DNA from: the human T2T-CHM13v2.0 reference genome, Homo sapiens
Length of the DNA stretch: 64,000 bases
Assembly (NCBI RefSeq): GCF_009914755.1
Contig: NC_060938.1
Strand: one strand, 5' to 3'
Positions 2,137-15,764 of the stretch are shown here, piece by piece; within the stretch, counting starts at the first letter, position 1, and each line of letters begins with the position of its first letter. The notes under the pieces are model-generated. The model saw nothing but the letters and a program-made list of their open reading frames with translations. It was not told the DNA's origin and did not search any database. The translations under genes and the position numbers were made by a program.

Positions 2137-2604
2137 CTTGGATTAGGCCACCTACTGCTTCTTCCTCTTCCTTTTCTCAGGCTCTGCAAGGAAGAGCTCC
2201 AGCTTCCTCTTGGAGAAGGAGATTCTGGGCCCCTTTTCTCTCTCCCAAACCTAGGTGGTGGCCATGCCCCTCGAGCTCTGCTTGGCACGTGTCTGCCAGT
2301 CTCAGGGGGCTCCATGGGAGTGAGGAAGGGCTCGGCGGCCCTGGGGGTCTGGTCCTCCTCCGCCATCCTCGAGTCCTCGGGCTACGTGCCCTCATCTTTG
2401 GCTTCCAGGGACACGGGCCCAGCTGGCCACTTCTATGACAAGAATGTGGGTTTTTTGTGACAGGGCGTCTACTATATGAACTTCCTCTGGACTCTGACTT
2501 CAGTGTGTAGGAAGCCACCTTACAGCTCATGTCACCCAGAGAACAGTCGTTGCAGCTCCAGTTGGAATGACTGGGGGTGTCTTCCGAATCGCCATCATAA
2601 AGAT
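2137..2604 (-). pseudogene. Exon 3 (last coding exon) of a decayed protein-coding gene
   Basis: Acceptor ttttgtcctcagcttttag at 2605. Protein-like sequence is spread over three frames: DLYDGDSEDTPSHSNWSC..., ...[32 protein letters not shown]..., and ...[36 protein letters not shown] (TAG 2152-2154). Donor CAAG|gtgagc at 2137/2136. Confidence 0.6.
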
Positions 2605-3780
2605 CTAAAAGCTGAGGACAAAAGTGTTTCTCAGTCCAAGAGCAGTTCTGCGAGGCGGAATCAAGTCTAACATGCTCGCATGCGCTGACTCTTCCTCCCG
2701 TCACTGATGCTGGTTTTTGCAGGCTCTGCCTTGCAAATGAATTTTTCTTTCTTTTTTTTTTTTTTTTTGAGACGGAATCTTGCTCTGTCGCCCAAGCTGG
2801 AGTGCAGTGGCGCAATCTGGGCTCACTGCAACCTCCACCTCCCGGATTCAAGCGATTCTCCTGCCTCAGCCTCCTGAGTAGCTGGGACTACAGGCGCCCG
2901 CTAATTTTTGTATTTTTAGTAGAGACGGGGTTTCACCATATTGGTCAGGCTGGTCTTGAACTCCTGACTCAGGTGATCCACCCGCCTCAGCCTCCCAAGG
3001 TGCTGGGATTACAGGTGTGAGCCACCACGCCTGGCCGAATTTTTATTTGTTTTTTGTTTGTTTTTGTTTTTTTTAAAAAACTGAGTCTCGCACTGTTGTC
3101 CAGGCTGGAGTGCAGTGGCGCGATCTCGGCTCACTGCAAGCTCCGCCTCCCAGGTTCACGCCATTCTCCTGCCTCAGCCTCCCAAGTAGCTGGGACTACA
3201 GGCGCCCACCACCAAGCCCGGCTAATTTTTTGGATTTTTAGTAGAGACAGGGTTTCACTGTGTTAGCCAGGATGGTCTCGCTCTCCTGACCTCGTGATCC
3301 ACCCGCCTCCCAAAGTGCTGAGATTACAGGCGTGAGCCACCACACTCGGCCTCTTTGTTTGTTTTTTTTTTTTTTTGAGACAGTCTGGCTCTGTCACTGA
3401 GGCTGGAGTGCAGTGATGCAACCTCATCTCACTGCAGCCTAGACCTCCTGGGCTTAAGTGATCCTCCCACCTCAGCCTCCCCAGACTACAGGTGCACACC
3501 ACCACGCCCGGCTAATTTTTGTATTTTTTGTAGAGATGGAGTTTCGCCATGTTGCCCAGGATGGCCTTGAACTCCAGGGCTCAAGCAATCCACCCACCTC
3601 AACCTCCCAAAGTGCTGGGATTACAGGCATGAGCCATTGTGCCCAGCTGCAAATGAATTTTTAAAAATGTGTTAGATCAATATTCATATCACCCAAAAAC
3701 AGCCTGAGAGCCCGCCACCACTGGGGACTCAGCCTGAGCCTTGTTCCCAGAAAGCCCTCAACGCAGTGCTGGGCACAGAC

Positions 3781-4009
3781 CTGGGAGGCTTGGCTCAAAC
3801 CGCCCTGCCCTCCGTTGGCAGGGCAGAGCTCCGTCTTTTCCTCTCAACAGCTCTTCCAAAGGGCAAGGCAGCATTTTCCTGGTGAGGGGCAAGCGAAGCT
3901 GAGGCCAGACCCACCCCCGAGTCTTCCCTCTGCCACATCCAGGGCCTGAAGGGCGTTCTGGGGAGCCTCCACCTTCACACCGAAGGCCGCCAAGGTGGTT
4001 GGCAAGAAG
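3781..4009 (-). pseudogene. Exon 2 of the decayed gene
   Basis: Acceptor cccatttcag at 4010 and donor CAG|gtctgt at 3781/3780. The 5' frame ([28 protein letters not shown]) is in phase with exon 1. The 3' frame (RKMLPCPLEELLRGKDG...FEPSLP) is in phase with exon 3. One internal frameshift separates them. Confidence 0.6.
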
Positions 4010-5530
4010 CTGAAATGGGCGTTTAAGTCCGAACCTTGTTTTCAAAGGTGCCCATTGCCTGTTCTCAAAGCAATGCACCTGAGAAGCAGTGGCAGGTGGC
4101 ACAGCCCACCCCCAACCGCCAGGGCCACCCAAACACCAGTTACAACACCATCACCAACAGAGCCTTTGCAGAACTTTTTTTTTTTTTTTTTTTTTTTGAG
4201 ACGGAGTCTTGCTCTGTCGCCCAGGCTGGAGTGCAATGGTGTGATCTTGGCTGACTGCAACCTCCGCCTCCCAAGTTCAAATGATTCTCCTACCTCAGCC
4301 TCCCAAGCAGCTGGGACTACAGGCACCCACCACCATGCCCGGCTAATTTTTCTATTTTTAGTAGAGACAGGGTTTTGCCATGTTGCCCAGGCTGGTCTCG
4401 AACTCCTGACCTCAGGTGATCTGCCCACCTTGGCCTCCCAAAGTGCTGGGATTACAGGCATGAGCCACCACTCCTGGCCCTCTTGTATTTTTTTGTAGAG
4501 ACAGGGTTTTGCCATGTTGCCCAGGCTGGTCTCCTGGGCTCAAGTGATCCACCCACCTTGGTCTCCCAAAGTGCTAGGATTATGGGCCTGAGCCACCCCA
4601 CCCGGCCCAACCTTATTATTACTGAAGTCGCCTTGTTACACACAAACATCTACAGTGCCTCCTGGCCACTCCTTCTGGACTTTTCTTTCCTAGCCCAGGT
4701 CAAAGTGGGCCTTCGGGAGGACCCTGGAGGAGAAGCCCCCTCCTCTTCACTTCCACCCTCTCTCTTCCACCCCTGGAAGTCAGCTTTCTGACCTCAGAAT
4801 CCCAGCTATCTTCTGGACTCAGGTGACAAGTCACCTAAGTGACAGATCCAGCATGCACTTTATGACCATCACTCTGCTCCTCCTGCATCAGCGCCCCACC
4901 CAACAGAGCCGACCAGGCTGGGAACACCGAGACCGAGAGCGCGTGGCTGTGTCTACAAAGGCCTCCTCTTTGAGGGAGACACGCGAGGCACGGGTGGGGC
5001 GATGAGACAGGATCGGCCGGTCCTTGACAGTCTCTGAAGCTGGGAGAACATGACCCCATGCTCTCCTGTTGGAGTCACCACCTCTTTGCCAACAGCCACC
5101 AAACCTCCACCTCCAATTAAGCTCCACCCCCATGTCCCCACTGCCCTCCGGACATCTGTTCAGCACCCCCCTCGACCTGGCCAAGGCTCCACGCACCGCC
5201 CTGGTTTCCCGCTCTGCCCAGCCCCCCGCTGAAGTCTCTAATGGGTTCTTCCGATTCCACCTGTCCAAGGTAAAACCCTGAGGTTGTCCCTCCTCCGCGG
5301 CACCTCCAGGTATCTGGTTGCTCAGGCTGAAATGTTTCCCAAGGCCCTGGCTCCTCCTCCTTCCAAACCCCGCAGGCAGCTGATTAGCAAACTCTGACTC
5401 TAACCTCAAAACATGTCCAGAATTCAGCCACATCTCCCCACTTCCCCGCCTGGCCCTGGGCCCCGCTATTCCATCTCAATCTCTGCCCTGGCCCCCAGCC
5501 CAGCATCCACTCTCAGACCAGAGCAATGCT

Positions 5531-6436
5531 TGTGAACTCCGAAAATCTGAGACAGGTCTCAGTTAATTTAGAAAAGATATTTGTCAAGGTTGAGGACGCG
5601 CACCCATGACACAGCCTCAGGAGGTCCTGACTGGGGGGAGAGAGACCCTCTCATATTGTTTTATACTCAGTACCTGTTTTAAGAAAAAAACGAAGTGAAA
5701 TCAAAGACAGGCAGCCCGGCGCCAGGCCCAAAACCAGGCCTGGGCCTGCCTGGCCTAAACCTAGTCGTTAAAAATCAGCTCATGACTTAGAACCCGATGT
5801 TACCCATAGATTTCAGGCATTGTATGGAAGAACATCGTGAGACTCCCTGCTCTGTTCTGTTTCACTCTGACTACCAGTGCATGAAACCCCTGTCACGTAT
5901 CCCCCAGACTGCTCAATCAATCACGACCCTTTCACGTAAAATCTTTAGTGTTGTGAGCCCTTAAAAGGGACAGAAATTGTGCACTTGGGGAGCTGGGATT
6001 TTAAGATGGTAACTTGCCGATGCTCCCAGCTGAATAAAGCCCTTCCTTCTACAACTCGGTGTCTGAGGGGTTTTGTCTGCGGCTCGTCCTGCTACACTGA
6101 CCACACGTACCCAAGGTGCTCAGAGCCCAGTTTGGTTTTATACATTTTAGGGAGACATGAGACATCCGTCGACATACGTAAGATGGACATTGGTTCCGTC
6201 TGGAAAAGCCTCAGAGTGGGGAGGGGGCTTCCAGGTCACAGGTAGGTAAGAGACAAATGGTTGCATTCTTTTGAGTTTCTGATGAGCCTTTCCAAAGAGG
6301 CGATCAGATATGCATTTATCTCAGTGAGCAGAGGGATGACTTTGAATAGAATGGGAGGCAGGTTTGCCCTAAGCAGTTCCCAGTTTGACTTTTCCCTTCA
6401 GCTTAGTGATTTGGGGACCCCAAGATTTTTTTCACA
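5531..6436. mobile_element. MER4-family (ERV1) solo LTR, interrupted by a MER11-like LTR
   Basis: tgtgaac...aaatctgagacaggtctcagttaatttagaaa...cacagcctcaggaggtcctgac resumes after 6101 (...ttttatacattttagggagacatgagacatc...). TG...CA termini; degenerate 4-bp TSD tgct/tgtt. Confidence 0.75.
5632..6096 (+). mobile_element. MER11-like (HERV-K11) LTR, 3' part only, nested in MER4
   Basis: Ends ...gaataaagcccttccttctacaactcggtgtctgaggggttttgtctgcggctcgtcctgctaca, recalled as the MER11 3' end. Flanked by direct repeat ctgac (5627-5631 and 6097-6101). AATAAA at 6033-6038. Confidence 0.75.
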
Positions 6437-6611
6437 TGTTGCTAAACCCCACCACGTAGCACACCAGAGACTGAGCCCTCACCGCACCCCCAACTCCCGC
6501 TGCAGCTCAGCCCTCTCGCCCCTCCACCTGGCCATCCCGTCCTTCCATCCAGTCTTTACTCTAGGGTCACCCTTCCCTGAGGCCTTCCTGGAGTCCCCTT
6601 CTCGTATTTCA

Positions 6612-15592: not shown

Positions 15593-15606
15593 CCATCAGA
15601 GGGCAC
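15593..15606 (+). promoter_or_regulatory. CTCF/CTCFL-like motif CCATCAGAGGGCAC
   Basis: One mismatch to the CCASYAGRKGGCRS consensus. Confidence 0.5.
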
Positions 15607-15628
15607 AGGGCTGCCACTCTGCACTTAC

Positions 15629-15648
15629 CTCTTGGATGGGATGTCCAT
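15629..15648 (-). pseudogene. Coding part of exon 1 of the decayed gene (MDIPSK-S)
   Basis: aacaaaATGG (A at -3, G at +4) at 15648, followed 20 nt later by a consensus donor AG|GTAAGT (15623-15628), phase 2. Confidence 0.6.
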
Positions 15649-15720
15649 TTTGTTCCCAGAGTGATCACCCAGGAGTTAAGGGTGGCGGGGGTCCTGCGGT
15701 CCAGCCTGTATGATGTTGCT

Positions 15721-15764
15721 GTCTCCACGGCAACCCAGCACGGAAGGGCCCCGCCAGCCCGCCC
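15721..15764. promoter_or_regulatory. RFX X-box, ETS core and GC box upstream of exon 1
   Basis: GTCTCCACGGCAAC (15721-15734) fits the X-box GTYNCYnnRGNAAC; CGGAAG at 15741-15746; CCCGCCC at 15758-15764. Confidence 0.6.

What the first reader, a model, noticed from the sequence alone, without database searches (positions are those of the whole stretch)
2137..15764. Hidden three-exon dead gene between DYNC1H1 and HSP90AA1 (candidate unitary pseudogene of a testis gene)
Seen in sequence, - strand: an X-box/GC-box promoter (15721-15764), then a strong-Kozak ATG at 15648 reading MDIPSK, then AG|GTAAGT (phase 2). An acceptor 11.6 kb away (4010) continues in frame as [29 protein letters not shown]. 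After a frameshift, RKMLPCPLEELLRGKDGALPCQRRAGRFEPSLP ends at a phase-1 donor (3781) that joins the acceptor at 2605 in frame as DLYDGDSEDTPSHSNWSC. Two further frame changes and two TAG stops (2382-2384, 2251-2253) lead to a basic, NLS-like C-terminus [24 protein letters not shown]. Read as it stands, the spliced mRNA stops at TGA 3844-3846 after 61 aa, 63 nt upstream of a junction, so it would be NMD-prone. Recalled, not verified: mouse has the testis-expressed gene 1700001K19Rik on the same strand in this interval. Inference: this is its human ortholog, lost in the primate or human lineage. The ORF track misses it because it only appears after splicing.
Basis: partly seen in the sequence, partly recalled or inferred. 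Interest (0 to 1): 0.85.

Follow-up and report, generated by a model that had tools for sequence, protein, structure and literature searches.

The report
Dead last exon of 1700001K19Rik
Between DYNC1H1 and HSP90AA1 the human genome keeps only the broken last exon of a small gene that most other mammals still have, so this is an ordinary lost gene and not the hidden three-exon gene first proposed.

Summary
Only the third "exon" is more than chance.

Window 2611-2143, minus strand, is the decayed terminal coding exon of the therian family that mouse calls 1700001K19Rik / LOC66323.
- It is 66% identical (103 of 156 aligned residues) to the Prolemur protein once three frame changes are allowed (near 2494, 2418 and 2245).
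- TAG 2384-2382 stands where orthologs have Gln. TAG 2154-2152 stands two codons before the ancestral TAA 2145-2143.
- A search of the whole T2T genome finds no other copy.
- The family has 121 database members. Among the 89 named rows, the only primates are two lemurs.

The orthologs' CDS is a 38-aa first exon (MAGLR...), a 17-aa micro-exon and this last exon. Neither upstream exon is detectable in the window. A control shows that a 38-aa exon decayed like the last one would usually be found (7 of 8 segments).

Verdict: a real unitary pseudogene relic lying antisense in the DYNC1H1 3'UTR. Interest is modest.

The parts
2143..2611 (-). Relic of the terminal coding exon (exon C) of the 1700001K19Rik/LOC66323 ortholog, including the ancestral stop TAA 2145-2143
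   Evidence: Frameshift-aware alignment to Prolemur P0044 gives 103/156 identical residues; Microcebus 91/151, colugo 93/155, rhinoceros 92/146, mouse 78/154. tblastn E down to 3e-19. It is the only locus in the T2T genome.
2612..2613 (-). Ancestral 3' splice site AG (tgtcctcag|CTTTTAGAT)
   Evidence: Orthologs begin this exon with F/L-L-D-P-Y-D-G. Isoforms that read the upstream intron (..CPQ|FLD..CAQ|FLD) match human ..CPQ|LLD.
2495..2611 (-). Segment still in the entry frame (frame 0): LLDLYDGDSEDTPSHSNWSCNDCSLGDMSCKVASYTLKS
   Evidence: The mouse primer matches 2585-2609 at 22/25 bases.
2419..2493 (-). Segment shifted to frame 1 ([25 protein letters not shown]). First frame change is near 2493-2495.
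   Evidence: Aligns to lemur SPEEVNLEDSLSSKIPDLVMKAASW.
2244..2417 (-). Segment shifted to frame 2 ([57 protein letters not shown]). Second frame change is near 2417-2419.
2382..2384 (-). In-frame TAG where orthologs have Gln (DVDMQPE)
   Evidence: The alignment shows the conserved DVDMQP.
2155..2244 (-). Segment back in frame 1 ([30 protein letters not shown]). Third frame change is near 2244-2247, in a GA-rich tract. Carries the family's most conserved motif.
   Evidence: The invariant columns K R K L E L L L. E P of alignment A1 are kept in human except one Leu to Phe.
2152..2154 (-). TAG in place of Phe/Tyr, two codons before the ancestral stop (orthologs KKQ[FY]VA*)
15573..15914 (-). Uncertain. 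This DNA is homologous to the N-terminal part of one fin-whale ab initio protein model of this family. It is not shown to be an exon in human.
   Evidence: tblastn of P0004 gives E 1.3e-5 and 2.8e-4. The alignment is in a different frame from MDIPSK. None of the other 117 N-terminal parts hits here.

Best explanation
Window 2611-2143 (minus strand) is the remains of the last and largest coding exon of a therian gene. Mouse calls it 1700001K19Rik or LOC66323. It lies downstream of HSP90AA1 on the same strand and antisense inside the long 3'UTR of DYNC1H1. In human it is a unitary pseudogene. The exon carries three frame-changing indels, one internal nonsense codon and a slightly early terminal stop. 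The two upstream coding exons, a 38-aa start exon and a 17-aa micro-exon, are not recognisable anywhere in the interval or the genome, and no other copy exists. No protein of the ancestral kind can therefore be made. The relic does nothing as a gene, and any transcript through it would be non-coding. The ancestral product was a small protein of about 200-245 aa. It is predicted to be mostly disordered, with two short conserved helices and a basic C-terminal tail; a nuclear role for that tail is my inference.
For: Shown:
1. Homology. One search gives P0002 at E 6.7e-10. One search gives 25 hits, of which 23 carry mammal names. One search gives 121 family members, 120 of them listed, with Mus rows named 'RIKEN cDNA 1700001K19 gene' and 'LOC66323'.
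2. Lesions. Searches give the same three shift points and the same two TAGs against the consensus and against three of the five single species (Prolemur, rhinoceros, mouse). The Microcebus and colugo traces place the second shift a few codons away, or earlier (2449). Identity to Prolemur is 103/156.
3. The ancestral stop TAA and the acceptor AG are kept in register.
4. Single copy. Searching the whole T2T genome with Prolemur P0044 finds only this locus, as three pieces in three frames with E 1.2e-11 to 1.7e-9. The next best hit has E 1.07. Residues 1-51 are unmatched. A DNA search also returns a single place.
5. Upstream exons not found. A six-frame hmmsearch of the whole window gives best E 0.6 for exon A and 0.15 for exon B, both at unrelated places. 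In frameshift-tolerant dynamic programming over 2612-30400(-), observed scores lie inside the shuffles: 12/60 and 37/60 shuffles reach them, and 32/100 and 47/100.
6. Power control. 7 of 8 38-column pieces of exon C are recovered above the shuffle maximum.
7. Synteny. The Fig. 5 legend of PMC7249449 calls the mouse gene a read-in gene of Hsp90aa1. The hub gene table gives the human flanks.
8. The mouse primer matches at 22/25 bases, with 0 of 100 shuffles giving a match.
9. No Pfam family for the relic or for orthologs. AlphaFold2 on the Microcebus protein gives mean pLDDT 54, with helices only at 44-56 and 183-192.

Inferred: the loss predates at least the anthropoids. Of the 89 named rows the only primates are Microcebus and Prolemur, and none of the 120 stored family proteins is more than 66% identical to the human relic.
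Against: - No genomic DNA of any other mammal was available. The indels are inferred from protein-to-DNA alignment, not from nucleotide alignment. Their exact size and position, and the order and date of the lesions, are unknown.
- The absence of exon B is weakly tested. Only 8 of 20 17-column control pieces pass the threshold.
- A weak, non-significant resemblance to exon A lies at 15927-15852, and to exon B at 15929-15899 and 15666-15640. 48/500 and 80/500 shuffles reach these scores even in the restricted region. Heavily eroded upstream exons are therefore not excluded.
- Only one human assembly was read, so fixation in the population is not shown.
- Expression was not testable.
- Frame 0 stays open for 236 codons (2887-2177). 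This would permit some unrelated product if the region were translated.
Confidence: 0.88

Rival explanations
1. One reading: a three-exon dead gene with promoter at 15721-15764, start codon at 15648, exon 2 at 3781-4009 and exon 3 at 2137-2604. All three exons are taken to descend from the ancestral coding sequence.
For: - The splice-like sites and reading frames exist as described.
- DNA at 15914-15573 is homologous to the N-terminal part of one fin-whale protein model of the family. An upstream exon of the gene may therefore once have lain near there.
Against: - Ortholog coding exons read MAGLRxGRPxCIRAAF..RRFK and ANHKKNHMDLIEGIWRE. Nothing like MDIPSK or [12 protein letters not shown]... 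occurs in them.
- None of 118 N-terminal parts of family proteins hits 3781-4009 at E <= 0.05. The only hit near exon 1 is in another frame.
- Start-plus-donor objects of this type occur 8 times in the window.
- Exon 3 starts at 2611, in phase 0, by the orthologs.
Confidence: 0.04
2. The locus still makes a functional product in human. This could be a protein from the long open frame 0 (stop to stop 2887-2177) or a regulatory antisense RNA over the DYNC1H1 3'UTR.
For: - Frame 0 is open for 236 codons.
- The relic lies antisense within the annotated DYNC1H1 3'UTR (hub table).
- The conserved C-terminal motif is almost unchanged at the DNA level.
Against: - After its first 39 codons, frame 0 leaves the ancestral frame. 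Upstream of the acceptor it runs into sequence that NCBI masks as repeat (2734-3677, hub table).
- Open frames of 165-203 codons are common in this stretch on both strands.
- No family member matches the out-of-frame part.
- No gene is annotated here in RefSeq (hub table).
- No expression data were available.
Confidence: 0.05
3. The similarity is not orthology. It would instead be a retrocopy or a chance ORF pattern in conserved DYNC1H1 3'UTR sequence.
For: The region lies in a UTR that may be conserved for its own reasons (hub table).
Against: - Protein-level matches in three successive frames with E down to 3e-19 and 1e-11 genome-wide are not chance.
- The relic keeps the intron-side sequence and the AG of the acceptor, as in ortholog isoforms that read into the intron.
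- It sits where the mouse gene sits relative to Hsp90aa1.
- No parent copy exists in the genome.
Confidence: 0.02

Closest known systems
Mouse 1700001K19Rik (LOC66323) and its therian orthologs ('uncharacterized protein LOC...')
   Same: - Homologous terminal exon, 51-66% identity after frame correction.
- Same acceptor position, same stop codon position and same C-terminal KRKLELLLAEPEK.KRKKQ motif.
- Same neighbourhood downstream of HSP90AA1 (hub table).
   Different: The human copy has three frame changes, an internal TAG and an early terminal TAG. It has no recognisable first coding exon or micro-exon, and no annotated gene.
Human unitary pseudogenes, such as GULOP and UOX-type losses (named from recall)
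   Same: - A single-copy relic at the orthologous position of a gene kept in other mammals.
- Disabled by frameshifts and nonsense codons, with some exons missing.
- No functional paralogue.
   Different: - The lost gene has no known function and no Pfam family, and is predicted to be disordered.
- The relic overlaps the 3'UTR of an essential gene on the other strand.
- The date of loss is not established here.

Membership tests
1700001K19Rik / LOC66323 protein family (therian) | Significant sequence similarity to the large terminal exon, including the C-terminal KRKLELLLAEPE motif | tested here: met
   The motif reads [12 protein letters not shown] in human. The invariant columns are listed.
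1700001K19Rik / LOC66323 protein family (therian) | Position downstream of HSP90AA1 on its strand, next to DYNC1H1 | tested here: met
   Human: hub gene table. Mouse: the Fig. 5 legend of PMC7249449 calls it a read-in gene of Hsp90aa1. The mouse position next to Dync1h1 is recalled, not seen.
1700001K19Rik / LOC66323 protein family (therian) | First coding exon MAGLRxGRPxCIRAAF...GFxKRQRN... | tested here: not met
   Searches give no match above shuffles. The power control recovers 7 of 8 pieces.
1700001K19Rik / LOC66323 protein family (therian) | Micro-exon ANHKKNHMDLIEGIWRE | tested here: inconclusive
   No match above shuffles. However, only 8 of 20 control pieces of this size are detectable.
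1700001K19Rik / LOC66323 protein family (therian) | Continuous open reading frame | tested here: not met
   Three frame changes and TAG 2384-2382.
Unitary pseudogene | Disabling lesions in a sequence orthologous to a gene that is intact in other species | tested here: met
   The intactness of the orthologs rests on database protein models, not on experiments.
Unitary pseudogene | No functional copy or parent gene elsewhere in the same genome | tested here: met
   Whole T2T genome, six frames. Only this locus is found and the next hit has E 1.07.
Unitary pseudogene | Not a retrocopy: intron-exon boundary kept, syntenic place | tested here: met
   The acceptor AG 2613-2612 and upstream intron sequence match ortholog isoforms that read into the intron. 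Synteny as above.
Unitary pseudogene | Lesions fixed in the species and shared along a lineage | not testable with these tools
   Only one human assembly and no other primate genome were available.

The most novel reading that the evidence does not exclude
A gene kept across marsupials and placentals, encoding a small disordered protein with a basic tail, was lost once in the stem of monkeys and apes after the split from lemurs. Its first exon was deleted. Its last exon has survived in unusually readable form (66% identity to lemur) because it lies antisense inside the DYNC1H1 long 3'UTR, and it may still be transcribed through HSP90AA1 read-through.
Probability: 0.12. Interest if true: 0.5.

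Novelty: new member of a known kind. Interest (0 to 1): 0.3.

Why it matters
This adds one more gene to the list of genes lost on the human lineage.
- The family is otherwise kept in marsupials, afrotherians, xenarthrans, laurasiatherians, rodents, tree shrew, colugo and lemurs. Its loss in our branch is a clean natural knockout of an uncharacterised gene. Testis expression of that gene is recalled from the RIKEN clone prefix and comes from no call.
- It explains why the mouse gene has no human name.
- It marks a stretch of the DYNC1H1 3'UTR whose conservation may partly reflect a former gene on the other strand.
- It also shows that gene models assembled from splice-like motifs across frameshifts need ortholog support.

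Tried and rejected
- First word-index search with the relic: found only the window's own ORF.
- Pfam on six conceptual pieces of the relic and on four orthologs: nothing.
None was significant. In one search the exon 2 region gave a best exon A score of 18.6, after which the script stopped with an error, so exon B was not scored there.
- By eye I saw ATGG(G)CAGGGCTG at 15830 and RAGLPWRQQH downstream as a possible shifted MAGL...RAGFRKRQRN. No objective test supported either, and I dropped them.
- I considered 15929-15899 as exon B with a GTGAGT donor. I rejected it because the fin-whale model P0004 carries the homologous stretch, while another Balaenoptera protein (P0005) has a different, canonical exon B.
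- The panda model P0013 hit at 3857-3759 (E 0.42) is noise. Its N-terminus resembles the 5' extension of P0031, not intron sequence.
- Literature: '1700001K19Rik' and '1700001K19' each return 7 papers, none about a human relic. 'unitary pseudogene' + 'DYNC1H1' returns 0 papers. 'LOC66323' returns 2 beetle papers. Supplements of gene-loss surveys were not searchable and may list it.
- A fold search was not run, because the model has pLDDT 54.
- One search was an empty script.
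Full report
**Observation**

Every quoted string and coordinate is present:
- ATG at 15648 (aaaATGG) reading MDIPSK, followed by AG|GTAAGT.
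- Acceptor AG at 4011-4010.
- The two peptide stretches of "exon 2" in two different frames.
- A GT after 3781.
- DLYDGDSEDTPSHSNWSC after 2605.
- TAGs at 2382-2384 and 2251-2253.
- [24 protein letters not shown] followed by a stop.

As spliced, the product is 61 aa and ends at TGA 3844-3846. The sequence is therefore as described. The open question is whether these features mean anything.

**What the third segment is**

The frame-0 translation of 2180-2605 was scored against 1.84 billion representative proteins. Apart from the window's own ORF it found one protein, P0002 (185 aa, E 6.7e-10). Using P0002 as the query gave 25 proteins, 23 of which carry mammal names (whales, pig, carnivores, squirrels, murids, armadillo and the mouse lemur).

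A profile of 18 of these (alignment A1) found 121 proteins, of which 120 were listed.
- Rows are named 'RIKEN cDNA 1700001K19 gene' (Mus, Nannospalax, Jaculus), '1700001K19Rik [Phodopus roborovskii]' and 'uncharacterized protein LOC66323 [Mus musculus]'.
- 89 rows carry a name. They span marsupials, elephant, xenarthrans, bats, mole, ungulates, whales, carnivores, rodents, tree shrew, colugo and two lemurs (Microcebus, Prolemur).
- No tarsier, monkey or ape is named.
- 31 rows are unnamed. None of the 120 stored proteins is more than 66% identical to the human relic, so none looks like a close relative of human.

The family has no Pfam model. An AlphaFold2 model of the Microcebus protein built with A1 is mostly low-confidence coil (mean pLDDT 54), with helices only at residues 44-56 and 183-192.

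**Link to the mouse gene and its place**

- The Fig. 5 legend of PMC7249449 (passage seen) calls 1700001K19Rik a read-in gene of Hsp90aa1 read-through transcription. I take that to mean it lies downstream on the same strand.
- PMC2266908 (table passage) puts it at 111.1 Mb of mouse chromosome 12.
- Table 6 of PMC3308053 (passage) gives genomic sequencing primers for the gene. One primer matches the window at 2585-2609(-) with 22 of 25 bases, and 0 of 100 shuffles give any match.

The adjacency to mouse Dync1h1 remains recall.

**Anatomy of the relic**

I wrote a protein-to-DNA aligner that allows frame changes. I ran it with the family consensus and with five single species. The consensus and three of the five species (Prolemur, rhinoceros, mouse) give the same path. 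The Microcebus and colugo traces place the second shift a few codons away, or earlier (2449).

| Window (minus strand) | Frame | Human reading or event |
|---|---|---|
| 2611-2495 | 0 | LLDLYDGDSEDTPSHSNWSCNDCSLGDMSCKVASYTLKS |
| near 2494 | – | first frame change |
| 2493-2419 | 1 | [25 protein letters not shown] |
| near 2418 | – | second frame change |
| 2417-2244 | 2 | contains TAG 2384-2382, where orthologs have the Gln of DVDMQP |
| near 2245 | – | third frame change, in a GA-rich tract |
| 2244-2155 | 1 | [30 protein letters not shown] |
| 2154-2152 | 1 | TAG where orthologs have Phe or Tyr |
| 2151-2146 | 1 | Val-Ala |
| 2145-2143 | 1 | TAA, exactly where orthologs stop (KKQ[FY]VA*) |

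Identity along this path:

| Species | Identical / aligned residues |
|---|---|
| Prolemur | 103/156 |
| Microcebus | 91/151 |
| Colugo | 93/155 |
| Rhinoceros | 92/146 |
| Mouse | 78/154 |

It is therefore not on the path.

The ancestral acceptor is AG 2613-2612. Orthologs begin this exon with FLDPYDG, which corresponds to human LLDLYDG from 2611. Ortholog isoforms that read into the intron end in ..CPQ or ..CAQ, as human does (..HFCPQ).

**The rest of the gene**

The ortholog alignment and isoform comparisons show a coding structure of three exons:
- Exon A: MAGLRxGRPxCIRAAFSxxxxRAGFxKRQRNxxRRFK, 38 aa.
- Micro-exon B: ANHKKNHMDLIEGIWRE.
- Exon C: the relic described above.

I searched for them in several ways:
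- Six-frame hmmsearch of the whole window: best E 0.6 and 0.15, at unrelated places.
- Frameshift-tolerant dynamic programming over 2612-30400(-). With linear gaps, 12 of 60 and 37 of 60 shuffled profiles reach the observed best scores. With affine gaps, 32 of 100 and 47 of 100 do.
- Single lemur, rhinoceros and colugo queries (no shuffle control).
- N-terminally extended models (z -1.4 and -0.2).
Around exon 1, 48 of 500 shuffles reach the exon A score and 80 of 500 the exon B score. Around exon 2 the best exon A score was 18.6, after which the script stopped with an error.
- The whole T2T genome with the Prolemur protein: residues 1-51 are unmatched.

As a power control, I searched 38-column pieces of exon C in the same way. 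The best hit fell in the right place for 8 of 8, and it exceeded the shuffle maximum for 7 of 8. For 17-column pieces only 8 of 20 exceeded the maximum. An exon A decayed no more than exon C would therefore probably have been seen. It is likely deleted or far more eroded. For exon B the test is weak.

- tblastn of the N-terminal parts of 118 family proteins against the window, at E <= 0.05, gave no hit in 3781-4009.
- Outside exon C that run gave four hits. Three were marginal and at unrelated places (E 0.036-0.046). The one clear hit was the fin-whale ab initio model P0004 at 15914-15573 (E 2.8e-4).
- That alignment runs in a different frame from MDIPSK. It shows only that the DNA is orthologous and lies upstream of exon C in a whale as well.
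- Objects of the type Kozak ATG + open frame + consensus donor occur 8 times in the window.
- The strict X-box consensus matches nowhere in the one-strand scan of the 64 kb. The half-site occurs 58 times and GC boxes 38 times.
- CpG o/e at 15500-16000 is 0.23-0.33.

These features are therefore at chance level.

**Copy number and setting**

The exon C DNA and the lemur protein each find only this place in the 3.1-Gb assembly. By the hub table the relic lies in unmasked sequence, antisense within the last exon of DYNC1H1 (3'UTR, 174-6054). Masked repeats lie just upstream (2734-3677).

**Explanation**

This is a unitary pseudogene: the orthologous, single-copy, disabled remnant of a gene kept in most therians.
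- Shown: homology, the lesions, single copy, and lack of detectable upstream coding exons.
- Inferred: that the loss is old (haplorhine or anthropoid stem), that exon A was deleted, that the ancestral protein is nuclear, and that the relic has no function.
Each has little or no support, as set out in its own section.

**Novelty and score**

The kind is well known. I found no print mention of this particular human relic. Searches for '1700001K19Rik' and '1700001K19' each returned 7 papers, none on this topic. 'unitary pseudogene' + 'DYNC1H1' returned 0, and 'LOC66323' returned 2 unrelated papers. Supplementary tables of gene-loss surveys could not be searched and may list it. I rate it a new member of a known kind, with interest 0.3.

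Noticed in passing
window 15573-15914 (-): This DNA is homologous to the N-terminal part of a fin-whale hypothetical protein of the family (P0004). By eye, the beaked-whale RefSeq model P0003 has a first coding exon resembling the same stretch (H.GD.AC.D, PPPTP). No search supported that resemblance. It may mark a conserved 5' exon or an alternative first exon of the ancestral gene.
   Followed up: partly
In the restricted region, 48/500 and 80/500 shuffles reach the top scores.
   Followed up: yes
window 2177-2887 (-): A 236-codon stop-to-stop open frame runs from masked repeat sequence through the first part of the relic. The protein databases hold it as a 224-aa ORF of the window itself (P0001). 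Open frames of 165-203 codons are frequent on both strands here.
   Followed up: partly
protein P0002 (unnamed source): In its distal third (PRLADTHRAEPECPGRHPG) this family member follows the reading that is out of frame in other orthologs, and it matches human frame 0 there. That copy may itself carry compensated frame changes or be a faulty model.
   Followed up: no
alignment of orthologs: Several database isoforms skip the micro-exon or use acceptors 4-14 codons upstream of exon C (for example ..SCAQ|FLD and ..VKGPKWFCAQ|FLD). The central part of exon C (after DVDMQP) is highly variable in length between orders.
   Followed up: no
window 1302-1312 (-): After the relic's stop, the first canonical AATAAA on the minus strand lies about 830 nt downstream, beyond Alu-like sequence starting near 2042. 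No ancestral polyadenylation signal was identified.
   Followed up: partly
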